Below, piece by piece: positions 15,693 through 41,036 of a DNA stretch of 42,931 nucleotides. Position 1 is the first letter of the stretch; each line of letters opens with the position of its first letter. The stretch lies in the sequence record OL657228.1. One strand, 5' to 3'. The notes below the pieces were generated by a model. The model saw nothing but the letters and a program-made list of their open reading frames with translations. It did not search any database and was not told the DNA's origin. The position numbers and the translations under genes were made by a program. This stretch comes from Escherichia phage 21.

Positions 15693-18600
15693 ATGGGTAA
15701 AGGCAGCAGTAAGGGGCATACCCCGCGCGAAGCGAAGGACAACCTGAAATCATCCCAGATGCTGAGCGTGATAGACGCCATCAGCGAAGGGCCGGTTGAA
15801 GGTCCGGTGGATGGATTAAAAAGCGTGCTGCTGAACAGTACGCCGGTGCTGGACAGTGAGGGGAATACCAATATATTCGGCGTCACGGTGGTGTTCCGGG
15901 CCGGTGAGCAGGAGCAGACACCGCCGGAGGGATTTGAATCCTCCGGCTCCGAGACGGTGCTCGGTACAGAAGTGAAATATGACACGCCGATCACCCGGAC
16001 CATCACGTCGGCAAACATTGACCGTCTGCGTTTTACTTTCGGCGTGCAGGCACTGGTGGAAACCACCTCAAAGGGGGACAGGAATCCATCGGAAGTCCGC
16101 CTGCTGGTTCAGATTCAACGTAACGGTGGCTGGGTGACGGAAAAAGACATCACCATTAAGGGCAAAACCACGTCGCAGTATCTGGCCTCGGTGGTGGTGG
16201 ATAACCTGCCGCCGCGCCCGTTTAATATCCGGATGCGCAGGATGACGCCGGACAGCACCACAGACCAGTTGCAGAACAAAACGCTCTGGTCGTCATACAC
16301 CGAAATCATCGATGTGAAACAGTGCTACCCGAACACGGCACTGGTCGGCGTACAGGTGGACTCGGAGCAGTTCGGCAGCCAGCAGGTGAGCCGTAATTAT
16401 CATCTTCGCGGGCGCATTCTGCAGGTGCCGTCGAACTATAACCCGCAGACGCGGCAATACAGCGGTATCTGGGACGGAACGTTTAAGCCAGCATACAGCA
16501 ACAACATGGCCTGGTGTCTGTGGGATATGCTGACCCATCCGCGCTACGGCATGGGGAAACGTCTTGGTGCGGCAGATGTGGATAAATGGGCGCTGTATGT
16601 CATCGGCCAGAATTGCGACCAGTCAGTGCCGGACGGCTTTGGCGGCACGGAGCCGCGCATCACCTGTAATGCGTACCTGACCACACAGCGCAAGGCGTGG
16701 GATGTGCTCAGTGATTTTTGCTCGGCGATGCGCTGTATGCCGGTATGGAACGGGCAGACGCTGACATTCGTGCAGGACCGACCGTCGGATAAGGTGTGGA
16801 CCTATAACCGCAGTAATGTGGTGATGCCGGATGATGGCGCGCCGTTCCGCTACAGCTTCAGCGCCCTGAAAGACCGCCATAATGCCGTTGAGGTGAACTG
16901 GATTGACCCGGATAACGGCTGGGAGACGGCGACAGAGCTTGTGGAGGACACGCAGGCCATTGCCCGTTACGGTCGTAACGTCACGAAGATGGATGCCTTT
17001 GGCTGTACCAGCCGGGGGCAGGCACACCGCGCCGGGCTGTGGCTGATTAAAACGGAGCTGCTGGAAACGCAGACCGTGGACTTCAGCGTGGGTGCAGAAG
17101 GGCTTCGCCATGTACCGGGCGATGTCATTGAAATCTGTGATGATGACTATGCGGGGATCAGCATCGGCGGGCGCGTGCTGGCGGTGAACAACCAGACGCG
17201 GACACTGACGCTCGACCGTGAAATCACGCTGCCATCCTCCGGCACCACGCTGATAAGCCTGGCTGACGGACAGGGGAATCCGGTCAGCGTGGAGGTCCAG
17301 TCCGTCACCGACGGCGTGAAGGTAAAAGTGAGCCGTGTTCCTGACGGCGTTGCAGAATACAGCGTGTGGGGGCTGAAGTTGCCAACGTTGCGCCAGCGCC
17401 TGTTCCGCTGTGTGAGTATCCGTGAGAACGATGACGGCACGTATGCCATCACTGCCGTGCAGCATGTACCGGAAAAAGAGGCCATCGTGGATAACGGGGC
17501 GCACTTTGACGGCGACCAGAGCGGCACGGTGAATGGTGTCACGCCGCCAGCGGTGCAGCACCTGACTGCCGAAGTCACCGCAGACAGCGGGGAATATCAG
17601 GTGCTGGCGCGCTGGGACACGCCGAAGGTGGTGAAGGGGGTGAGCTTTATGCTTCGCCTGACCGTGGCAGCGGATGACGGCAGTGAGCGGCTGGTCAGCA
17701 CGGCCCGGACGACGGAAACCACATACCGCTTCAGGCAACTGGCGCCAGGGAACTACAGGCTGACAGTCCGGGCGGTAAATGCGTGGGGGCAGCAGGGCGA
17801 TCCGGCATCGGTATCGTTCCGGATTGCCGCACCGGCAGCGCCGTCGCAGATTGAGCTGACACCGGGGTATTTTCAGATAACCGCCACGCCGCATCTTGCG
17901 GTTTATGATCCGACGGTACAGTTTGAGTTCTGGTTCTCGGAAAAGCGGATTGCGGATATCAGGCAGGTTGAAACCACAGCACGCTATCTTGGCACGGCGC
18001 TGTACTGGATAGCCGCCAGTATCAATATCAAACCGGGCCATGATTATTATTTTTACATCCGCAGTGTGAACACCGTTGGCAAATCGGCATTTGTGGAGGC
18101 TGTTGGCCAGCCGAGTGATGATGCATCCGGCTATCTGAATTTTTTCAAAGGAGAGATAGGGAAAACCCATCTGGCTCAGGAGTTGTGGACGCAGATTGAT
18201 AACGGTCAGCTTGCGCCTGACCTGGCTGAAATCAGGACGTCCATTACGGGTGTCAGCAATGAAATCACGCAGACCGTCAATAAGAAACTGGAAGACCAGA
18301 GTGCAGCGATCCAGCAGATACAGAAGGTTCAGGTTGATACAAATAATAACCTGAACAGCATGTGGGCTGTGAAGCTGCAGCAGATGCAGGACGGACGCCT
18401 TTATATCGCGGGTATTGGTGCCGGTGTTGAGAATACTCCTGACGGTATGCAGAGTCAGGTGCTGCTGGCGGCGGACAGGATTGCGATGATTAATCCTGCG
18501 AATGGCAACACAAAGCCGATGTTTGTTGGGCAGGGCGATCAGATATTCATGAACGAAGTGTTCCTGAAATATCTGACGGCTCCCACCATTACCAGCGGTG

Positions 18601-19175
18601 GCAATCCCCCAACGTTTTCACTGACACCTGATGGTCGACTTTCTGCGAAAAATGCGGATATCAGCGGTAACGTGAACGCGAACTCCGGGACGCTCAACAA
18701 CGTCACGATTAATCAGAACTGTCGGATTCTGGGAAAACTGTCAGCTAACCAGATTGAAGGTGATATTGTCAAAACGGTGGGAAAAGCCTTTCCGAGAAAT
18801 GGCAGTTATGCCAGCGGTACAATAACGGTCACTGTGTACGATGACCAGGCTTTTGACCGTCAGATAGTAGTCCCCCCCGTTCTGTTTCGTGGGGGTAAGC
18901 ATGAAAACTTCAACAGCAACAACCAACAGTCATACTGGTATTCAACCTGTAAGCTGCAGGTACTGAAGAACGGACAGGAAATCTTTCAGCAACCCGCGAC
19001 GGATGTCAGCAGGGTATTTTCATCAGTCATTGATATGCCTGCCGGACACGGCCATGTCACCCTGACTTTCAATGTTTCTTCATATGGTGCTAATAACTGG
19101 ACGCCAACGACCAGTATCAGCGACCTTCTTGTTGTTGTGATGAAGAAATCTACAGCCGGTATCAGTATCAGTTGA
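15693..19175 (+). CDS. J: central tail fibre / host specificity protein J
   Basis: 1160 aa; N-terminal about 950 aa nearly identical to recalled lambda gpJ ([20 protein letters not shown]...); C-terminal about 200 aa recognisably J-like but diverged. Confidence 0.93.
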
Positions 19176-19193: not shown

Positions 19194-19220
19194 GGGCGCC
19201 AGAAATGGCGCCTTTTTTAT
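19194..19220 (+). terminator. rho-independent terminator after J
   Basis: GGCGCC-AGAAAT-GGCGCC hairpin followed by TTTTTTATTT immediately after the J stop codon (approximate coordinates). Confidence 0.7.
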
Positions 19221-19227
19221 TTGTGGA

Positions 19228-21294
19228 GTGAATATGGCAGTACAGATTTCAGGCGTGCTGAAAGACGGTGCAGGAAAACCGATACAGAACTGCACCATTC
19301 AGCTCAAAGCAAAACGTAACAGCACCACGGTTGTGGTGAACACGGTGGCCTCAGAAAATCCGGATGAAGCCGGACGTTACAGCATGGATGTCGAGTATGG
19401 CCAGTACAGCGTTATCCTGCTGGTTGAAGGTTTTCCGCCTTCACATGCCGGGGCCATCACCGTGTATGAGGATTCTAAGCCGGGGACATTGAATGATTTT
19501 CTGGGCGCTGCAACAGAAGATGATGTTCGTCCGGAGGCACTGTATCGTTTTGAAAAGATGGTGGAAGAGGTGGCACGCAACGCTGAAGCCGCCTCTCAGA
19601 GCGCAGCGGCAGCAAAGAAATCAGAAACAGCAGCGGCATCGTCCAGGAATGCGGCGAAAACATCAGAGACGAATGCAGGTAACAGCGCGAAAGCGGCAGC
19701 TTCTTCAAAAACAGCCGCACAAAACGCAGCAACAGCGGCAGAACGTTCAGAGACAAATGCCCGTGCGTCAGAAGAAGCCTCCGCAGACAGTGAAGAGGCT
19801 TCCCGCCGTAATGCAGAGTCAGCCGCTGAAAATGCCGGAGTCGCCACCACAAAAGCGCGGGAGGCCGCAGCAGACGCAACAAAGGCCGGGCAGAAAAAGG
19901 ATGAGGCTCTGTCGGCAGCGACACGGGCTGAAAAGGCGGCAGACCGCGCAGAAGTCGCAGCGGAAGTGACTGCAGAGCCCTATGCGAATATAGTGCCGCC
20001 GCTGCCTGATGTGTGGATACCGTTTAACGATTCACTGGATATGATTGCGGGTTTTTCTCCGGGCTATAAAAAAATAGCTATTGGTGACGATGTGGTTCAG
20101 GTCGCCAGTGATAAACAGGTTAATTTCAGTCGCGCATCAACGGCAACATATATCAACAAATCTGGCGAACTGAAAACGGCGGAAATTAATGAGCCGCGAT
20201 TTGAGTGTGATGGCCTGCTTATTGAGGGACAAAGAACGAACTACATGCTCAATTCGGAAAGTCCAGCCAGCTGGGGGAAGTCATCAAACATGGATGTGCC
20301 CGAAACCGGGACAGATAGTTTTGGTTTTACTTATGGAAAGTTTGTCTGCAACGATTCTCTGGTTGGGCAAACTTCGGCTATTAATATGGCATCAATTGCT
20401 GCAACAAAGTCAGTTGATGTCTCAGGCGATAACAAGTACGTGACAACCTCATGCCGTTTTAAAACAGAACGACAGGTAAGGTTACGTATACGGTTTGATA
20501 AGTATGATGGTAGTGCAACAACTTTTCTTGGCGATGCGTACATTGATACGCAAACGCTTGAAATTAATATGACAGGTGGGGCTGCCGGCAGAATTACGGC
20601 ACGAGTCAGGAAGGATAAGACCACAGGCTGGATTTTTGCAGAGGCAACGATTCAGGCAATTGATGGTGAGTTAAAAATAGGCTCTCAGATACAGTATTCT
20701 CCTGAGCGGGGTGGGGCAACAGTATCTGGTGACTATATTTATCTTGCCACCCCACAAGTAGAGAATGGGCCGTGTGTATCATCATTTATTATTTCAGGAG
20801 GCAGCGCAACGACAAGAGCCAGTGATTTGGTTAGTATCCCCACCAGAAATAATCTTTATAAGTTACCATTTACTTTTTTACTTGAGATTCATAAAAACTG
20901 GGATATTGCACCAAACGCCGCACCCCGCGTGTGGGATATAGCAGCAGCCAATACCGGGCAATCAGCAATTGCAGCAATCAACAGAGGTAGTGGTAAGTTA
21001 TATATGAGTCTGTCAAACCCTTCAGGCTTGTATGTTAATAGCGCAGCGACAGATGTATTTGCAGAGAAAACCACATTTGGATGTATTGCAAAAGCTGATG
21101 GTCACTTTCATGTGGTGACAAATGGTAAAGCGGTTAATGAAGTTTATTGTGAATATAATGGTGTGACCGCTGATAAAAATATCCGATTTGGAGGGCAGAC
21201 GAATACTGGAGAACGACATCTGTTTGGCCATATTCGCAATTTCCGCATATGGCATAAAGAATTAAATGACAGGCAATTAAAAGAGGTCGTATGA
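19228..21294 (+). CDS. stf: side tail fibre protein (Stf-like N-terminus, unrelated C-terminal domain)
   Basis: 688 aa; first about 90 aa near-identical to lambda Stf (MAVQISGVLKDGAGKPIQNCTIQLKA...), then an Ala/Ser/Glu-rich repetitive shaft, then a C-terminal half from about aa 250 with no Stf similarity and visibly lower GC. Confidence 0.8.
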   Translation: MNMAVQISGVLKDGAGKPIQNCTIQLKAKRNSTTVVVNTVASENPDEAGRYSMDVEYGQYSVILLVEGFPPSHAGAITVYEDSKPGTLNDFLGAATEDDVRPEALYRFEKMVEEVARNAEAASQSAAAAKKSETAAASSRNAAKTSETNAGNSAKAAASSKTAAQNAATAAERSETNARASEEASADSEEASRRNAESAAENAGVATTKAREAAADATKAGQKKDEALSAATRAEKAADRAEVAAEVTAEPYANIVPPLPDVWIPFNDSLDMIAGFSPGYKKIAIGDDVVQVASDKQVNFSRASTATYINKSGELKTAEINEPRFECDGLLIEGQRTNYMLNSESPASWGKSSNMDVPETGTDSFGFTYGKFVCNDSLVGQTSAINMASIAATKSVDVSGDNKYVTTSCRFKTERQVRLRIRFDKYDGSATTFLGDAYIDTQTLEINMTGGAAGRITARVRKDKTTGWIFAEATIQAIDGELKIGSQIQYSPERGGATVSGDYIYLATPQVENGPCVSSFIISGGSATTRASDLVSIPTRNNLYKLPFTFLLEIHKNWDIAPNAAPRVWDIAAANTGQSAIAAINRGSGKLYMSLSNPSGLYVNSAATDVFAEKTTFGCIAKADGHFHVVTNGKAVNEVYCEYNGVTADKNIRFGGQTNTGERHLFGHIRNFRIWHKELNDRQLKEVV

Positions 21295-21569
21295 AAGATT
21301 TAACTTTGAAGTTTCATGACAAACTGCAGTTTAAGGCCTTCCTGTCATCTCTTGACTGGGAGGAGGATGAAGACCTCCAGAATAAACTGTTAGTCGATGA
21401 AATTGGTTTCACCTACACAGAAACAGGGGTAACAGAAGAGGGAGAACCTGTCTGTGTCCGGAATGACGGTTATTTTGTCAACATTCGCATTCTTGATGAC
21501 TTGTTTGATGTTTCTGTATTCTCTGATTATGTCGTGGAGCTGGAAACACCGCTTCGGGAATGGAGCTGA
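21291..21569 (+). CDS. hypothetical small acidic protein, start overlapping the tail fibre stop (ATGA)
   Basis: 92 aa, about 25% Asp+Glu; start overlaps the stf stop, suggesting coupled translation; no family recognised. Could be a fibre chaperone or something else. Confidence 0.45.
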   Translation: MKDLTLKFHDKLQFKAFLSSLDWEEDEDLQNKLLVDEIGFTYTETGVTEEGEPVCVRNDGYFVNIRILDDLFDVSVFSDYVVELETPLREWS

Positions 21570-21581
21570 AAGGAGGAAATA

Positions 21582-21875
21582 ATGGATATAAGCCCCTTAC
21601 TTCATGCGCTTTGTGCTGTGGCTGCGCAGATACTGGTTGGTCTTTTTACCGGAAACTGGGCTTACGGAGCGATAGCCGGTTGTACGTTCTTCATTGCGCG
21701 TGAACATACCCAGGCAGAATATCGCTGGATTGAAATGTTCGGGCATGGCAAGCGAATGAATATGCCGTGGTGGGGCGGTTTTGATCCGCGAGCTTGGGAT
21801 GTGGCAAGCCTGATGGATTTTGCTGTGCCGGTGGTGGCGTGTCTGCTGGTCTGGCTGTTGGTTAATCGTGGGTGA
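21582..21875 (+). CDS. hypothetical small membrane protein
   Basis: 97 aa with two hydrophobic segments (LLHALCAVAAQILVGLF and FAVPVVACLLVWLLV); SD-like GGAGG upstream; no family recognised. Confidence 0.45.
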   Translation: MDISPLLHALCAVAAQILVGLFTGNWAYGAIAGCTFFIAREHTQAEYRWIEMFGHGKRMNMPWWGGFDPRAWDVASLMDFAVPVVACLLVWLLVNRG

Positions 21876-21966: not shown

Positions 21967-22824
21967 CTAATTGGGTGATAACAGATCCTGTGTATGGGAG
22001 TTTCCCTTTTTGCGTGCGTTGATGCTGGTAACGGCAAACGTCATGATGAACAAAACCGCGAATAAGACGACAATCGTCGGAGCTGGTGCGCTGTCGATAA
22101 AAAAGGACAACCAGACACCAGTCATTGACACTATTACCGATATGCCAGTCGCCAGTAGGAGCGCAATATGAAAGCGTTGTGTCAGGAGTACCGCAATGGC
22201 GCCAGGCGCAATGAGCAGAGAAATGGAGAGAATGATACCTACCGCTTTCAGCGTCGCCACAATGGTCAGAGAGACCATGCACAGCAGCCCATAATGCAGC
22301 CATCTCGTATGCAAACCGCTTACCTGCGCCTGTTGATAATCAAAGCTGAACAGCAAAAAATCCCGCCATTTTACGCTAATAACAAGTGTAACCAGCCCGG
22401 CAATAATCATCGTCTGGATTATATCGCCGATGGTTATCCCGAGCATGTCGCCGAAAAGAATATGGTCAAGATGTACGTCTGGTTTGACTGCAATATACAA
22501 GATCAGACCTGCGGCAAACATGCCAGAAAAAACAATCCCCATCACTGTATCTTGCTTGATTCGGCTGTTGTCTTTCAGGTATCCCGTCGCCACCGCGCAG
22601 AATACTCCGGCGACGAATGCCCCTGTAGCCAAAGGTAACCCCAGAATCCAGGCAAGCACGATTCCAGGAAAAACCGCATGACTCATCGCGTCACCCATCA
22701 GTGCCCAACCTTTCAGGACCAGAAAGACCGACAGCAGCGCACAGGGTATGGAAACTACCAGTGAAATCAGCAGTGCGTGACTCATAAAGGTGAACTGCAG
22801 TGGCTCCAGTAATAATGCCATCAT
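21967..22824 (-). CDS. sitD: Mn/Fe ABC transporter permease SitD
   Basis: 285 aa polytopic membrane protein, paralogous to the adjacent SitC and last gene of the four-gene minus-strand operon. Confidence 0.85.
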   Translation of the reverse strand: MMALLLEPLQFTFMSHALLISLVVSIPCALLSVFLVLKGWALMGDAMSHAVFPGIVLAWILGLPLATGAFVAGVFCAVATGYLKDNSRIKQDTVMGIVFSGMFAAGLILYIAVKPDVHLDHILFGDMLGITIGDIIQTMIIAGLVTLVISVKWRDFLLFSFDYQQAQVSGLHTRWLHYGLLCMVSLTIVATLKAVGIILSISLLIAPGAIAVLLTQRFHIALLLATGISVIVSMTGVWLSFFIDSAPAPTIVVLFAVLFIMTFAVTSINARKKGNSHTQDLLSPN

Positions 22825-23678
22825 GAGCGATCCTCCAGCGCCTTATGCGCACGCCGACGATTTGCCAAAAGCCCATGGGTGGGCGCAAAGACAAATGCTA
22901 AAAGAAACAGCAGTGTCTGCGCCACCACGATGATTCCACCTGTCGCGCCGTCCAGAAAGTAACTGACCCACGCGCCGAGGAAACTGGTCACACTGCCAAT
23001 AGTTACAGCAATCATGAGCAGGCGGGGAAAACGATCGGTTAACAACCATGCTGTTGCACCGGGAGTCACCACCAGACAGATCACCAGAAAGGCACCAACC
23101 GTTTGCAGCGCCGCAACGGTCGAAACCGACAGCAGGGTGAAGAAGATGAGTTTTAATCTGCCCGGATGCAATCCAATAGCACGGGCGTGATTCTCGTCGA
23201 AAAAGGTCACCATAAGATCTTTCCATTTGAAAAAAAGCACGATGATCGAGAGAATGCCAATGATAGTGAGTTGCAGGATATCCGCCGGATCGATTGCCAG
23301 AATATTGCCCAGGACGATGGTCTGAATGTTCACAGATGTCGGGTTCAATGACACCATAAACAGCCCCAGGCCAAAAAAGGACGAGAAGATCAGACCGATG
23401 ATGGCATCTTCTTTTAAGCGGGTGCGTTGGTTAAGAAACAGCATGCTGCCCGCAGCCAGTCCGCCGGAAAAGAAGGCTCCCAGAGAAAACGGAAGCCCCA
23501 GCATATATGCCCCCGCAACACCCGGGACAATAGAGTGCGACAACGCATCGCCAATCAGCGACCAGCCTTTTAGCATCAGATAGCATGACAGGAAAGCGCA
23601 GAGACCGCCGACCATCGCCGAGACCCACATCGCATTGAGCATATATTCATAGCTGAAGGGTTCCAGTAGCACGTTCAT
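22821..23678 (-). CDS. sitC: Mn/Fe ABC transporter permease SitC
   Basis: 285 aa polytopic membrane protein with ABC-3 permease character; overlaps sitB and sitD by 4 nt. Confidence 0.85.
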
Positions 23679-24502
23679 CTTTCTTCCCTCTGCACCGCTG
23701 ACGGTCGATGAGCCACAAAAGGGCGTTCATCGTCAGTAATAATGCTTTCTTCCGAGCCGTTAAGTGTGACATGGCGCAGTACGCCGCTAAAAGCCAGCTC
23801 TAGGTTCTCGGCTGTAAAAGTGGTGTCTGTCGGCCCGCTTGCCAGGACGGTGCCTTTGACCATGACCGTATAATCGCAAAATGTCGTGACGGATCCGAGA
23901 TTGTGTGTTGAGACAAGCATCGTTTTGCCTTCCGCGCGTAACTCCCTCAACAGGCTGATGATTTTGGCTTCGGTTTTCACATCAACGCCAGTAAAAGGTT
24001 CATCCAGCAGGATCACATCACCCTGCTGTGCAATCGCTCTCGCCAGAAAGACGCGTTTCTTTTGTCCACCGGAAAGCTCGCCGATTTGTCGATGGCGAAA
24101 ATTCACCATATCGACACGTTCCAGCGCATCGGTGACAATTTGACGATCCCTCTTTTTGGCGATACGCAACATACCCATATGCCCATAGCGGCCCATCATC
24201 ACCACATCTTCCACCAGTACAGGAAATGACCAGTCAACATCTTCTGACTGAGGGACGTAGGCAACCAGGTTTTTCTGTAACGCCTGTCGCGTGGGAATAC
24301 CCAGAACAGATATCTTTCCGCTGGTCAGACGCACAAATCCCATAATCGCTTTAAACAACGTCGATTTTCCGGAACCGTTTACCCCAACCAGAGCGGCAAT
24401 AGATCCACTTGGTACTGTGAAGGATGCATCGCGCAGTGCTGTGTGCCCGTTACGCCAGGTGACAGTAACATCATTAACGACAATGCCTGCAGATTGCATC
24501 AT
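23675..24502 (-). CDS. sitB: Mn/Fe ABC transporter ATP-binding protein SitB
   Basis: Walker [13 protein letters not shown] signature LSGGQKKRV, Walker B ILLDEP. Confidence 0.9.
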
Positions 24503-25416
24503 TATTTCTCCCTTTTCCCAGCTTTAATTCCCTGTACCAGCGTACTGGTAGTAACCTTAAGAAGGTCGATATACGTCGGTACCGGGCCGTTTTCTGTGCT
24601 CAGGGAATCGACATAGAGCACACCGCCGTAGTGTGCGCCGGTTTCACGCGCAACCTGACGCGCTGGTTTATCGGAAATCGTACTCTCGCTAAAGACTGCC
24701 GGGATATGATTTTTCTTAACTATATCAACAACCTTACGTACCTGCTGCGGTGTTCCTTGTTGATCGGCATTAATCGGCCACAGATAAAGCTCTTTTAGCC
24801 CCAAATCGCGTGCGAGATAAGAAAAAGCCCCTTCACTGGTGACCATCCATCGCTGATTCTCAGGGAGTTCCGTAATCTGCTTACGCAGGGGGGCAAGGGT
24901 TTGGGTAATCTTGGCTTTATAAGTATCGGCATTGCGTTGGTAGGTTTGTGCATTTGCCGGATCGTATTTTATCAACGCATCACGAATATTATCGACGTAA
25001 ATCAGAGCATTATCTGGCGACATCCATGCATGGGGGTTAGGTTTGCCCTCATAGGGTCCTTCGGTGATCCCTACAGGCGTCACACCCGAAGAGACAATTA
25101 CTTCTGGAACCCCATTGAGATGCTGGTAAAAGCGTTGGAACCACAATTCCAGATTCATACCATTGGCGAGAATCAGTTGTGCCCCCTGCGCACGTTTAAT
25201 ATCGCCAGGGGTAGGCTGATACTCATGAATTTCTGCACCAGGCCTGGTTATGGATGAGACTTCTGCAGCATCTCCCGCCACGTTTTTGGCCATATCCGCG
25301 ATGATGGTAAATGTTGTAATGACCTTGAATTTTTCAGTTGCACTTGCCTGAAATGCGATCGAGCAGGTGAGTGCGAGGCCCCCCAAGAGCATGGTTACTT
25401 TTTTTATTGAGTGCAT
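24502..25416 (-). CDS. sitA: periplasmic Mn/Fe-binding protein SitA
   Basis: 304 aa with N-terminal signal peptide ([26 protein letters not shown]); first gene of the operon; resembles cluster A-I metal-binding proteins. Confidence 0.88.
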
Positions 25417-25511: not shown

Positions 25512-25699
25512 AACTTTGAGGCCCAAAACAGGGATTAGGTTGTTTCCTGCTGGCGACGTGTTATTGAGGAAAAAAGTAAGGCAGCTAGTAGGCTTTGAAA
25601 TAACGTTCTGCGGTTGGCTGATGCAATTTCGAGAGTGCATGTATTGAATGATTTCTAGCCGTTACTGATTTTCGTATTTTTTGCATGAGATGATTTGCA

Positions 25700-25990
25700 C
25701 CTCCCCCCACCGAGCCTCCATGACTTTACTCCACTGTCTCTAGGGCTGCTGTGTGCCAGGAGCGGAAGCAGGGGGGCCAGAGACTCCTTAAAAGTTGATA
25801 GCTCGTTTTGCAGGGAGACTTACACGGTAAGCGTTATTCCGAAGAGCTTAAAATTGAAGCAGTCAAACGGGTTGTTGAGCGTGTTTATGCGCTGCCATCT
25901 GATTAATCGACGGAAGCAGTTCCGTTTGGTCTATGATGCAGTTGTCCGGCAGGCGCTCTGTGACGCAAAAGAACGATAGGAGTAGCATTG
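25700..25990 (+). mobile_element. probable IS3-family insertion sequence remnant (orfA N-terminal fragment, disrupted)
   Basis: A short frame translating to ...GKRYSEELKIEAVKRVVER resembles IS3-family OrfA HTH N-termini but has no start and is bounded by stop codons; no intact transposase follows. Confidence 0.4.
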
Positions 25991-26114
25991 AAGTGAACGA
26001 GGTTATGCTTGTCTTATATTATCCTCTATTTTAAAAACATCAGCTGGTTGTGTAAGAGTTTTTATTGTTTTATCTTGTTGACTTTGCTTTTATGAAAACA
26101 GAGTGATTGATACA

Positions 26115-26873
26115 ATGAAAACCTTAAGTGGGAAAGAGTTTAGGAAATTATTTAATCGTTATGAGACAGGATTCTATCTAAGTGAGTTTGAATACTTAAA
26201 GGACTTTGATCCTTTGTTTCCTGAATGCGTAGGGAAAGAATTAAAGTTGGGTTATAAACGAAAAGTTGATGTATGGTGCGAAGAGGATGCTGCGCTATAT
26301 GCAGAATTTATAGCTACAAAAGAAAGGCTGAAAAGAGGCCGGTTAATCCTAAAAATAAACCAAGTGTGGTCGCGTGTATATCCTGCTTATATTTATGCAA
26401 TTGAAGAAAGAATAAATGTCAGGGCAAAGGGGAGAGAGTCATTTAAGTATGAAACTGTGCAAGAAAAACAATGTAAACTTTCCATAATGTTAGATGGTCT
26501 GAAAGACCTTGAATGTGAAATAGCTATGATTTCAAGTGAGTTTGAAATTGAAAAACACTCTATGCACTATTTTTATATGATTTTTGATATTGAACGCTAT
26601 ATAAATGACTGCAGTTACTTTGTTTTTTCTGCTGCTAAAGTTGTTAAAGGCGTGATTCAATGCATTGGTTACATTGACAAAAATAACAAAGCAAGTTGCG
26701 ATGAATTTTATTCAGGCAGCTATGAATGCTTGGATGATGATCAGGAAACACTGAACTATTTAAATGAATCATGCGCAGAGGGTATAGACGCTGATAAAGA
26801 TCTCATCAGGAAGAATGAGTTATTAGCCTTATCCCTGAAGGAATTGTATCAACTTCTCGTTTCAAAAAAATAA
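26115..26873 (+). CDS. hypothetical protein, AT-rich orphan cargo gene (no recognisable family)
   Basis: ORF track 26103..26873; probable ATG at 26115 (MKTLSGKEF). Visibly AT-rich, Lys/Glu-rich with 9 Cys; TTGACT -35-like hexamer about 30 bp upstream; lies between the IS remnant and attP. Confidence 0.6.
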   Translation: MKTLSGKEFRKLFNRYETGFYLSEFEYLKDFDPLFPECVGKELKLGYKRKVDVWCEEDAALYAEFIATKERLKRGRLILKINQVWSRVYPAYIYAIEERINVRAKGRESFKYETVQEKQCKLSIMLDGLKDLECEIAMISSEFEIEKHSMHYFYMIFDIERYINDCSYFVFSAAKVVKGVIQCIGYIDKNNKASCDEFYSGSYECLDDDQETLNYLNESCAEGIDADKDLIRKNELLALSLKELYQLLVSKK

Positions 26874-39746: not shown

Positions 39747-39865
39747 TAACTGAGCCGTAGCCACTGGCTATCATGAATTCATCAGTGATAGTTACGCTGC
39801 GGCCTTCTTTTTTTCCCCTTCCCAATATAAGAACTACGCAATCCGTTACTGGCGGAGGCGTTGCT

Positions 39866-40081
39866 ATGAAATCAATGGACAAAATCTCAACTGGCATTGC
39901 CTACGGAACATCTGCTGGTAGTGCGGGATACTGGTTTTTGCAGTGGTTGGATCAGGTCAGTCCGTCACAGTGGGCTGCGATTGGAGTGCTTGGAAGCCTT
40001 GTGTTGGGTTTTCTCACTTATCTGACAAATCTGTATTTCAAAATCAGAGAAGACAGACGAAAGGCTGCGAGAGGTGAATAA
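39866..40081 (+). CDS. S: pinholin S21 (dual-start holin/antiholin)
   Basis: 71-aa frame [71 protein letters not shown]; dual-start MKSM motif; matches phage-21 S21 as I recall it. Confidence 0.9.
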
Positions 40082-40578
40082 TGCCTCCATCATTACGAAA
40101 AGCCGTTGCTGCTGCTATTGGTGGCGGGGCTATTGCCATAGCATCTGTGTTAATCACTGGCCCAAGTGGTAACGATGGTCTGGAAGGTGTCAGCTACATA
40201 CCATACAAAGATATTGTTGGTGTATGGACTGTATGTCACGGGCATACAGGAAAAGACATCATGCTCGGTAAAACGTATACCAAAGCAGAATGCAAAGCCC
40301 TCCTGAATAAAGACCTTGCCACGGTCGCCAGACAAATTAACCCGTACATCAAAGTCGATATACCGGAAACAATGCGCGGCGCTCTTTACTCATTCGTTTA
40401 CAACGTGGGTGCTGGCAATTTCAGAACATCGACGCTTCTTCGCAAAATAAACCAGGGCGATATCAAAGGCGCATGTGATCAGCTACGTCGCTGGACATAT
40501 GCTGGCGGTAAGCAATGGAAAGGTCTCATGACTCGTCGTGAGATTGAGCGTGAAATCTGTTTGTGGGGTCAGCAATGA
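40081..40578 (+). CDS. R: SAR endolysin (R21-like lysozyme)
   Basis: 165 aa; N-terminal signal-anchor-release segment ([20 protein letters not shown]) followed by a lysozyme-like domain; pairs with the pinholin. Confidence 0.88.
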
Positions 40579-41036
40579 ACAGAGTAACCGCGATTATCTC
40601 CGCTCTGGTTATCTGCATCATCGTCTGCCTGTCATGGGCTGTTAATCATTACCGTGATAACGCCATTACCTACAAAGCCCAGCGCGACAAAAATGCCAGA
40701 GAACTGACGCTGGCGAACGCGGTAATTACTGACATACAGATGCGTCAGCGTGATGTTGCTGCGCTCGATGCAAAATACACGAAGGAGTTAGCTGATGCGA
40801 AAGCTGAAAATGATGCTCTGCGTGATGATGTTGCCGCTGGTCGTCGTCGGTTGCACATCAAAGCAGTCTGTCAGTCAGTGCGTGAAGCCACCACCGCCTC
40901 CGGCGTGGATAATGCAGCCTCCCCCCGACTGGCAGACACCGCTGAACGGGATTATTTCACCCTCAGAGAGAGGCTGATCACTATGCAAAAACAACTGGAA
41001 GGAACCCAGAAGTATATTAATGAGCAGTGCAGATAG
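40575..41036 (+). CDS. Rz: spanin inner-membrane subunit Rz
   Basis: Start [21 protein letters not shown]; near-identical to lambda Rz. Confidence 0.9.
40795..40977 (+). CDS. Rz1: spanin outer-membrane lipoprotein Rz1 (embedded in Rz, +1 frame)
   Basis: 60 aa with lipobox (LVVVGC) and proline-rich tract, fully nested within Rz in another frame. Confidence 0.88.

What the first reader, a model, noticed from the sequence alone, without database searches (positions are those of the whole stretch)
21291..21875. Translationally coupled acidic 92-aa protein and a small membrane protein downstream of the tail fibre
The 92-aa ORF starts in the ATGA overlap with the fibre stop codon and is about 25% Asp/Glu. 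It could be a minimal fibre chaperone, but that composition is also typical of DNA-mimic anti-restriction proteins. The following 97-aa two-helix membrane protein could be a superinfection-exclusion or immunity-like factor. Neither has an obvious lambda counterpart.
Basis: inference. Interest (0 to 1): 0.4.

Follow-up and report, generated by a model that had tools for sequence, protein, structure and literature searches.

The report
Tail-fibre partner protein plus membrane cargo gene
The two small genes after the tail fibre of this lambda-like E. coli phage are real but unrelated: the acidic 92-residue protein always accompanies this type of fibre and is most likely its assembly helper, not an anti-restriction DNA mimic, while the 97-residue membrane protein is a mobile cargo gene of unknown function, found after the receptor-binding genes of many different phages.

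Summary
The 688-aa side tail fibre (19228..21294) ends in an ATGA overlap with a 92-aa acidic ORF (21291..21569; 24% Asp/Glu, pI 4.1). A 97-aa membrane ORF (21582..21875) follows 12 nt later behind a strong Shine-Dalgarno.

Neither matches any Pfam, NCBIfam or PADLOC model. Both fall in PHROG families of unknown function.

The 92-aa protein is tied to the fibre. An orfA homologue followed all 80 viral loci that encode a relative of the fibre's last 330 residues (27-100% identity). In the reverse search, 76 of 80 loci with distant orfA homologues had this fibre type directly upstream, overlapping by 1 or 4 nt; the other four were cut contigs or ORF-calling artefacts. The pair occurs in lambda-like, T5-like and Mu-like phages. 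The fibre has no other chaperone. I read orfA as a dedicated fibre chaperone or tip accessory from a new family. The DNA-mimic idea is not supported.

The 97-aa protein is independent. It belongs to a family of about 1,900 clusters. It follows tail-fibre, tailspike or gpJ genes in sipho-, myo- and podophages, and also sits at non-phage chromosomal sites. Its near-invariant loop probably faces the periplasm. Superinfection exclusion is plausible but untested.

The parts
19228..21294 (+). Side tail fibre (688 aa). The N-terminal part is the lambda Stf-type attachment domain. The distal part is a GTA-head-spike-fibre-like domain followed by a C-terminal concanavalin-A-like (Laminin_G_3, 'galectin-like') domain. 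It has no S74 intramolecular chaperone domain.
   Evidence: ORF. (PF08400 E=1e-68 at 3-133; Laminin_G_3 at 562-683, E=5e-5, below the gathering score). (phrog_1419). (NF048003 at 331-531).
21280..21285 (+). Shine-Dalgarno-like AAGAGG for orfA, inside the end of the fibre gene.
   Evidence: Read from the sequence.
21291..21569 (+). orfA: 92-aa acidic protein, proposed as a dedicated fibre chaperone or tip accessory. Its start overlaps the fibre stop (ATGA).
   Evidence: phrog_1361. AF2 pLDDT 89.3. Obligate pairing with the fibre C-terminal module.
21571..21576 (+). Strong Shine-Dalgarno AGGAGG for orfB, in the 12-nt spacer after orfA.
   Evidence: Read from the sequence.
21582..21875 (+). orfB: 97-aa inner-membrane protein with three helices and a nearly invariant loop (residues 40-73). 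It is an independent cargo gene in the slot after the receptor-binding genes.
   Evidence: phrog_1443. AF2 pLDDT 92.9. Alignments. Genomic contexts.

Best explanation
Two unrelated genes share the end of the late tail operon.

(1) orfA (92 aa) is the dedicated partner of the side tail fibre encoded just upstream. Shown: it is always encoded directly after this fibre class and is translationally coupled to it. Inferred: it is made in step with the fibre and binds the fibre's distal, ConA-like-tipped module. Binding probably uses its conserved, poorly packed C-terminal tail (P-x-x-P-x-R-x-W-A at the C-terminus). It helps that module fold and trimerise, as lambda Tfa or Mu Tfa do for their fibres, and may stay bound at the tip. 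It belongs to a family unrelated to the known chaperones.

(2) orfB (97 aa) is a separate mobile cargo gene. Shown: it is a small hydrophobic protein with three confidently predicted helices. It belongs to a large unannotated family and sits directly after the receptor-binding genes of very different phages. Inferred: it has an N-out/C-in topology, with the almost invariant loop (REHTQAEYRWI..FG.GKR.NMPWWGGFD.R.W) at the periplasmic face of the inner membrane. There it most likely interferes with a conserved envelope step used by incoming phages, that is, superinfection exclusion at the level of genome entry.
For: orfA:
- ATGA overlap with the fibre stop.
- In 80 IMG/VR loci found with distant orfA homologues (about 30% identity), 76 have a homologue of the window fibre's distal part directly upstream, overlapping by 1 nt (65 loci) or 4 nt (10 loci). 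The other four are truncated contigs or ORF-calling artefacts.
- In the reverse search, all 80 loci found with the fibre's last 330 residues (27-100% identity) have an orfA homologue starting -4 to +10 nt from the fibre stop.
- The pair occurs in lambdoid prophages, T5-like virulent phages (IrisVonRoten gp22-gp23, fp01) and Mu-like myophages.
- The fibre has no S74 intramolecular chaperone, and no Caudo_TAP gene follows it. The distal fibres that follow orfA elsewhere carry their own S74 domain.
- In Mu-like loci and in this window no distal fibre follows, yet orfA is kept, with dN/dS of 0.27-0.35.
- orfA identity tracks identity of the fibre's last 120 residues (Spearman 0.63).
- The AF2 model is confident except for the conserved C-terminal tail (conservation).

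orfB:
- AF2 pLDDT is 92.9 with helices 4-23, 26-53 and 74-96.
- 19 columns are invariant, most of them in the loop.
- Arg-rich C-terminal tails and an R/K at the helix 1-2 turn in distant homologues indicate N-out/C-in.
- It lies after the fibre module in lambdoids, in 62 of 80 loci.
- It also lies after an S74 fibre in HannyBb, after gpJ in a Comamonas prophage and after an S74 fibre in a Leclercia P2/HP1-like prophage.
- Further contexts: after the fibre assembly gene in phiHAP-1, after the tailspike and before int in the P22-like phage Gally, and between tailspikes on a 160-kb Ackermannviridae-like contig.
- Only 1 of the 80 distant orfA loci carries it, so it is not part of the fibre-orfA unit.
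- The lysis cassette lies elsewhere, at 39773..41036.
Against: orfA:
- Nothing here shows physical binding.
- Co-variation with the lectin domain is only moderate and is not corrected for shared ancestry. Mosaics exist: in L186 orfA is 90% identical but the lectin domain 41%; in L188-190 and L199 orfA is 30% identical but the lectin domain 61-65%.
- In roughly two thirds of distant loci a second, distal fibre gene follows orfA. A joint or adaptor role is therefore not excluded.

orfB:
- No promoter-like site was found upstream, and the spacer to orfA is only 12 nt. There is thus no sign of expression in the lysogen.
- It also occurs in virulent phages. It is also found at apparently non-phage chromosomal sites: pirin-orfB-RIO1 in Aeromonas, and next to ligA.
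- It matches no PADLOC model and no PHROG family with an exclusion annotation.
- Fold searches gave only generic helical matches.
Confidence: 0.55

Rival explanations
1. orfA is a structural joint or adaptor rather than a chaperone. It would cap the distal end of the proximal fibre and dock a second, distal fibre onto it, a role like T4 gp35/gp36. In this phage the distal fibre gene has been lost, and orfA remains as a cap or relic.
For: In IrisVonRoten, fp01, HannyBb and about two thirds of the distant loci, orfA sits between a proximal fibre and a distal fibre carrying an S74 or Phage_tail_C_2 domain. These distal fibres have no recognised anchor domain and share a short N-terminal motif. 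The BASEL paper models IrisVonRoten gp24 as attached to the proximal fibre and leaves gp23 unexplained (10.1101/2024.09.12.612763).
Against: Pairing with the upstream fibre is universal, but pairing with a distal fibre is not. Mu-like loci and this window have none, yet orfA is conserved. DT57C and AnnaHegner branch their fibres without such a protein.
Confidence: 0.25
2. orfA is a DNA-mimic anti-restriction protein, like Ocr or ArdA, that merely happens to lie after the fibre gene.
For: It has 24% Asp/Glu and pI 4.1. The whole family is acidic, with a median of 19% Asp/Glu and pI 4.2.
Against: It is a late-operon gene translationally coupled to a structural gene. It is never found apart from this fibre class in the 160 loci examined. 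It matches no Pfam, PADLOC or PDB-sequence entry and shows no fold similarity to known mimics. By general knowledge, anti-restriction genes are expressed early.
Confidence: 0.03
3. orfB is a lysogenic-conversion factor that changes a surface polysaccharide or another envelope structure. It could, for example, inhibit a periplasm-facing assembly enzyme, as the small membrane peptides Iap of phage D3 and gp21 of epsilon15 do. This would stop adsorption rather than DNA entry.
For: In the P22-like phage Gally it occupies the slot between the tailspike gene and int. By general knowledge, P22-like phages carry O-antigen modification genes in that slot. The predicted periplasmic loop would face where the Wzy and WaaL active sites lie (plus general knowledge).
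Against: The family has about 60% identity across hosts with unrelated O-antigens. It is also present in Sphingomonas-type genomes, which by general knowledge lack LPS. It also occurs in virulent phages.
Confidence: 0.12
4. orfB serves the phage's own lytic cycle at the membrane, for example in timing of lysis or in protecting progeny from abortive ejection into debris. Alternatively it is a host-fitness gene with no role in phage-phage conflict.
For: It appears to be co-transcribed with the late operon: the spacer is 12 nt and no promoter-like site was found. It is present in virulent phages. It sits at stable chromosomal positions in several Aeromonas species.
Against: The lysis cassette is complete and lies elsewhere. 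The gene is dispensable for many relatives of the same phage type, being clearly absent in about 10 of 80 loci. No domain hints at a metabolic role.
Confidence: 0.15

Closest known systems
Tail fibre assembly proteins of the Caudo_TAP family (lambda Tfa, P2 gpG, Mu U/U')
   Same: A small protein encoded directly after the fibre gene in the same operon. The proposed role is folding and trimerisation of the fibre's distal receptor-binding part, possibly with the protein staying at the tip.
   Different: No sequence match to the family. Shorter, at 92 aa against about 175-200 aa. The predicted alpha/beta fold has no solved relative. It serves a ConA-like-tipped fibre rather than the lambda/P2/Mu type of tip.
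S74 intramolecular chaperone domain of endosialidase and T5 pb1-type fibres
   Same: It supplies the chaperone that a trimeric fibre needs. In three-gene versions of this module the distal fibre uses it.
   Different: It is part of the fibre chain and is cleaved off. The window's fibre lacks it, which is why a separate helper is expected.
T4 long-tail-fibre joint proteins gp35/gp36
   Same: Small proteins encoded between the proximal and distal fibre genes, matching the gene order seen in IrisVonRoten, fp01 and HannyBb.
   Different: No homology. The window phage and the Mu-like loci have no distal fibre.
Membrane superinfection-exclusion proteins (T4 Imm, HK97 gp15, P22 SieA)
   Same: Small inner-membrane proteins encoded by phages. 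HK97 gp15 is likewise a cargo gene inside the tail gene region (general knowledge). The proposed site of action is the periplasmic face of the inner membrane.
   Different: No sequence match in Pfam, PHROGs or PADLOC. No experimental evidence. orfB is far more widely distributed and also sits at chromosomal, non-phage sites.
Receptor-blocking lipoproteins encoded next to receptor-binding genes (T5 Llp, phi80/N15 Cor)
   Same: Position directly beside the receptor-binding protein gene.
   Different: orfB has no lipobox, and Cys11 is not conserved. It accompanies receptor-binding proteins of unrelated types, so it cannot be specific to one receptor.

Membership tests
Caudo_TAP tail fibre assembly proteins (lambda Tfa / P2 G / Mu U) | Sequence match to the family profile | tested here: not met
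   No Pfam family at E <= 1 other than a chance LUD_dom hit. None of the 34 family members hits it.
Caudo_TAP tail fibre assembly proteins (lambda Tfa / P2 G / Mu U) | Encoded directly downstream of, and co-oriented with, the fibre gene it serves | tested here: met
   ATGA overlap. 76 of 80 loci and 80 of 80 loci in the two reciprocal searches.
Caudo_TAP tail fibre assembly proteins (lambda Tfa / P2 G / Mu U) | Binds the fibre's C-terminal region and is needed for its trimerisation | not testable with these tools
   Needs co-expression or pull-down, or a multimer structure prediction.
DNA-mimic anti-restriction proteins (Ocr, ArdA) | Sequence or fold similarity to a known mimic | tested here: not met
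DNA-mimic anti-restriction proteins (Ocr, ArdA) | Strongly acidic surface | tested here: inconclusive
   Composition is acidic: 24% Asp/Glu and pI 4.1. The arrangement of surface charge was not analysed. Acidity is shared by the whole fibre-linked family.
DNA-mimic anti-restriction proteins (Ocr, ArdA) | Early-expressed gene, independent of structural modules | tested here: not met
   It lies in the late tail operon, translationally coupled to the fibre, and is never separate from it.
PHROG 1361 (unknown function) | Full-length profile match | tested here: met
   E = 8e-42 over residues 1-91 of 92. All 34 aligned relatives match.
PHROG 1443 (unknown function) | Full-length profile match | tested here: met
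   E = 2e-58 over residues 1-96 of 97.
Known superinfection-exclusion or receptor-blocking proteins (T4 Imm/Sp, P22 SieA/B, HK97 gp15, Cor, Llp) | Sequence match to a described family | tested here: not met
   The only hits are three PHROGs of unknown function. There is nothing in Pfam, NCBIfam or PADLOC.
Known superinfection-exclusion or receptor-blocking proteins (T4 Imm/Sp, P22 SieA/B, HK97 gp15, Cor, Llp) | Located in the cell envelope | tested here: met
   This rests on prediction only: the hydropathy profile, three confident helices and the charge distribution.
Known superinfection-exclusion or receptor-blocking proteins (T4 Imm/Sp, P22 SieA/B, HK97 gp15, Cor, Llp) | Expression protects the cell against incoming phage | not testable with these tools
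   Needs plaque or adsorption assays.
Holins | Encoded in the lysis cassette next to the endolysin | tested here: not met
   The P21-type holin, lysozyme and Rz lie at 39773..41036. orfB is 18 kb away, at the end of the tail module.

The most novel reading that the evidence does not exclude
orfB represents a large, unannotated family (about 1,900 clusters) of periplasm-facing inner-membrane proteins. In this reading the family acts as a generic barrier to phage genome entry, or to another conserved envelope step of infection. It travels with receptor-binding modules through sipho-, myo- and podophages, both temperate and virulent, and has been domesticated at chromosomal sites in Aeromonas and Sphingomonas-type bacteria. 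Separately, orfA would found a new family of fibre chaperones that must be moved together with ConA-like-tipped fibres.
Probability: 0.25. Interest if true: 0.6.

Novelty: new variant of a known kind. Interest (0 to 1): 0.4.

Why it matters
Side tail fibres of this class are common. They occur in lambda-like prophages of pathogenic and probiotic E. coli (Nissle 1917, ATCC 25922, ExPEC/APEC strains) and in T5-like phages used to study O-antigen recognition. If the 92-aa gene is the fibre's helper, host-range engineering that swaps such fibres must carry it along. It would also add a chaperone family unrelated to the known ones.

The 97-aa protein belongs to one of the larger families with no annotation at all. 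Its consistent place beside receptor-binding genes and its invariant loop make it a cheap, well-defined target for a phage-exclusion or envelope-phenotype screen.

Neither result overturns current ideas; both fill gaps in the annotation of very common prophage genes.

Tried and rejected
- Pfam, NCBIfam and PADLOC scans of both proteins gave nothing usable.
- PHROGs returned only families of unknown function.
- PDB sequence profile searches gave no meaningful match for either family.
- An exhaustive HMMER search with the orfA profile found only 83 representatives. Some were long PKD-repeat-like acidic proteins. I judged them convergent beta-hairpin matches, not homologues.
- The first attempt to find loci with the broad orfA alignment failed for lack of a conserved stretch. 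A narrower alignment worked.
- Literature searches on DT57C LtfA/LtfB, the BASEL phages, Gifsy-1 Stf, sitABCD lambdoids, RcGTA head spikes, CFT073 locus tags and superinfection-exclusion reviews turned up no statement on either protein.
- The virion gel analysis of the T5-like phage SIA3lw covered 19-132 kDa, so a roughly 10.7-kDa protein could not have been seen.
- The promoter and terminator scan found no promoter for orfB and no terminator after it.
- A holin role for orfB was rejected because a complete lysis cassette lies elsewhere.
- A lipoprotein role (Cor/Llp-like) was rejected for lack of a lipobox and of a conserved Cys.
Full report
**What is there.**
The window is a lambda-like temperate coliphage. 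It has a gpA-type terminase, a lambda-type tape measure protein, J and a lambda-type integrase. It also has a P21-type holin with lysozyme and Rz.

The region of interest is 100% identical to Escherichia phage PhiR63_2. It is also 100% identical to prophages of E. coli Nissle 1917, ATCC 25922 and many ExPEC/APEC strains. It is 99% identical or better to phages ev017 and Perceval.

Gene order and spacing:
- J runs 15693..19175.
- The 688-aa side tail fibre runs 19228..21294.
- A 92-aa ORF, here orfA, runs 21291..21569. Its ATG overlaps the fibre TGA (ATGA).
- A 97-aa ORF, here orfB, runs 21582..21875. It lies 12 nt after orfA, behind AGGAGG.
- The next gene is sitD, on the other strand. The sitABCD operon is cargo inside the phage.

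orfA has 22 Asp/Glu in 92 residues and pI 4.1. The one amendment is that orfB is predicted to have three helices, not two.

**Are they real genes?**
- Both match PHROG families of unknown function almost end to end: phrog_1361 at E = 8e-42 and phrog_1443 at E = 2e-58.
- Neither matches Pfam, NCBIfam or PADLOC.
- orfA has 48 homologous clusters, nearly all from Escherichia or Shigella. An exhaustive profile search found only 83 representatives.
- orfB has 577 clusters with the single sequence and 1,893 with a profile. They come from Gamma-, Beta-, Alpha- and Deltaproteobacteria.
- Pairwise dN/dS against close relatives is below 1 for both, from few substitutions.
- Both AlphaFold2 models are confident, with pLDDT 89.3 and 92.9.

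**orfA belongs to the fibre.**
The orfA family shares four conserved elements:
- an N-terminal M-[KR]-D-L-x-L-K-F;
- D-x-I-G;
- G-Y-[HF]-V-N-x-R;
- P-x-x-P-x-R-V-W-A exactly at the C-terminus.

I fetched 80 viral contigs holding distant members, about 30% identical to the window protein. In 76 of them the gene directly upstream is a homologue of the distal part of the window's fibre (residues ~255-687, about 30% identity). It overlaps the orfA start by 1 or 4 nt. The other four loci are cut contigs or ORF-calling artefacts.

The reverse search used an alignment of the fibre's last 330 residues. All 80 loci returned, at 27-100% identity, have an orfA homologue starting between -4 and +10 nt from the fibre stop.

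The pair is found in three phage types:
- lambdoid prophages;
- T5-like virulent phages, including IrisVonRoten (gp22-gp23) and fp01;
- Mu-like myophages, where the next gene is the baseplate protein gpP.

The fibre has the lambda Stf-type N-terminus and a GTA-head-spike-fibre-like middle. Its C-terminal domain is ConA-like. The BASEL authors describe this last domain in IrisVonRoten gp22 as a protruding galectin-like domain (10.1101/2024.09.12.612763).

The fibre has no S74 intramolecular chaperone, and no Tfa-type gene follows it. By general knowledge, trimeric fibres nearly always need one or the other. orfA is therefore the only candidate helper.

**Chaperone or joint?**
In IrisVonRoten, fp01, HannyBb and roughly two thirds of the distant loci a second fibre gene follows orfA. 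These distal fibres carry their own S74 domain or a Phage_tail_C_2 domain, and share a short N-terminal motif. That gene order suggests orfA could be a joint between proximal and distal fibres.

Three points argue against this as the main role:
- The tie to the upstream fibre is universal, while the tie to a distal fibre is not.
- The window phage and the Mu-like loci keep orfA without any distal fibre.
- The distal fibres bring their own chaperone.

I therefore favour a dedicated chaperone or tip-bound accessory of the upstream fibre. I keep the joint model as the main rival.

Co-variation is only moderate. Spearman correlation is 0.63 between orfA identity and identity of the fibre's last 120 residues, without correction for shared ancestry. 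There are clear mosaics, such as L186 and L188-190. This suggests orfA recognises conserved elements, such as the invariant ...GHIRN[LF]RIWH... end of the fibre, rather than the variable lectin surface. That last step is inference.

**The DNA-mimic idea.**

**orfB is a separate module.**
Only one of the 80 distant orfA loci carries orfB. In enterobacterial lambdoids, orfB follows the fibre module in 62 of 80 loci. It lies either directly after orfA or after an intervening distal fibre.

Full-length relatives also lie in these positions:
- after gpJ in a Comamonas prophage;
- after an S74 tail fibre in a Leclercia P2/HP1-like prophage;
- after the fibre assembly gene in the myophage phiHAP-1;
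- after the tailspike and before int in the P22-like phage Gally;
- between two tailspike genes on a 160-kb Ackermannviridae-like contig.

Shorter relatives of the loop occur in large Aeromonas phages.

The family also sits at apparently non-phage chromosomal sites. In several Aeromonas species the order is pirin-orfB-RIO1. Some other genomes in the scan have it next to ligA.

So orfB consistently occupies the slot after the receptor-binding genes of phages of all three tail types. The receptor-binding proteins themselves are unrelated. orfB therefore cannot be a fibre-specific factor.

**What orfB looks like.**
The model has helices 4-23, 26-53 and 74-96. The membrane segments vary, but the stretch from residue 40 to 73 is almost invariant: A-R-E-H-T-Q-A-E-Y-R-W-I..F-G.G-K-R.N-M-P-W-W-G-G-F-D.R.W. 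D2, H8 and Q16 in helix 1 are invariant as well.

In distant homologues the C-terminal tails are Arg-rich, and the turn between helices 1 and 2 carries an Arg or Lys. By the positive-inside rule this puts the N-terminus and the conserved loop in the periplasm. This is an inference, not a measurement.

Other points:
- There is no lipobox.
- The lysis cassette is elsewhere.
- No promoter-like site lies upstream.
- No clear terminator lies downstream.
- Fold searches gave only generic helical matches.

**Most likely mechanism for orfB.**
The protein is small, has a conserved periplasm-facing surface and moves between phages as cargo beside the receptor-binding genes. It most resembles exclusion proteins that act at the inner membrane (T4 Imm, HK97 gp15, P22 SieA; general knowledge). 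I rank superinfection exclusion first, at roughly one in three.

A surface-modification role is weakened by the family's presence in Sphingomonas-type genomes and by its high conservation across hosts with different O-antigens. A role in the phage's own lytic cycle, or a host-fitness role, cannot be excluded. No result here tests any of these.

**Verdict.**
- The chaperone reading of orfA is well supported by reciprocal gene-neighbourhood evidence, but orfA belongs to no known chaperone family.
- The DNA-mimic reading is not supported.
- orfB is an independent member of a large unannotated membrane-protein family whose function remains open.
- I found no published work on either protein.
- I rate the pair as a new variant of known kinds, of moderate interest.

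Noticed in passing
window 21967..25416 (minus strand): A complete sitABCD iron/manganese ABC transporter operon lies inside the phage, between the tail module and the integrase and convergent with orfB. Mathieu et al. 2020 reported it in 70% of their infant-gut lambda-like phages.
   Followed up: partly
window 19194..19213: A GC-rich terminator-like hairpin followed by a T-run sits between J and the fibre gene. This phage has no lom gene there, whereas its close relative Perceval does (L001 3371..3970).
   Followed up: no
window 25695..25979 and 26103..26873: Two plus-strand ORFs (94 and 256 aa) between sitA and the integrase have no Pfam match. They are annotated as hypothetical in Perceval.
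   Followed up: no
L019 5315.., L041 5315.., L058 5313.., L063 5314.., L020 5295..: The distal fibre genes that follow orfA homologues share a short N-terminal motif, M-x-[NR]-[RK]-x-D-[ST]-[IV]. It could be the docking peptide for attachment to the proximal fibre.
   Followed up: no
L146 3398..8777: A 160-kb contig labelled Salmonella enterica carries baseplate-wedge and multiple tailspike genes. It looks like an Ackermannviridae phage genome. An orfB homologue sits between two of its tailspike genes.
   Followed up: partly
L186; L188-L190 and L199: These loci show mosaic fibre-orfA pairs. In L186 orfA is 90% identical to the window but the lectin domain only 41%. In L188-L190 and L199 orfA is 30% identical but the lectin domain 61-65%. 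Recombination therefore occurs at or near the gene boundary.
   Followed up: partly
L031 5001..6377: The orfA homologue is fused in frame to the following baseplate gpP-like gene, through a frameshift just before the conserved C-terminus. This is probably a sequencing error or a pseudogene.
   Followed up: partly
P0197, P0198, P0206 (1,326-2,744 aa proteins): The orfA profile hits long, acidic proteins at several places each. I read only P0198, which is a PKD-repeat-like protein with the unit ...VEVDWGDG...Y.V.VRV.DDDG. I took the hits to be a convergent beta-hairpin pattern rather than homology.
   Followed up: partly
L005 8001..8309; L094, L096, L100, L101: In several Aeromonas species the orfB homologue sits at the same chromosomal position, next to a pirin gene. 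L005 shows the full order pirin-orfB-RIO1 kinase, with no phage genes nearby. This suggests a domesticated or ancestral cellular copy.
   Followed up: partly
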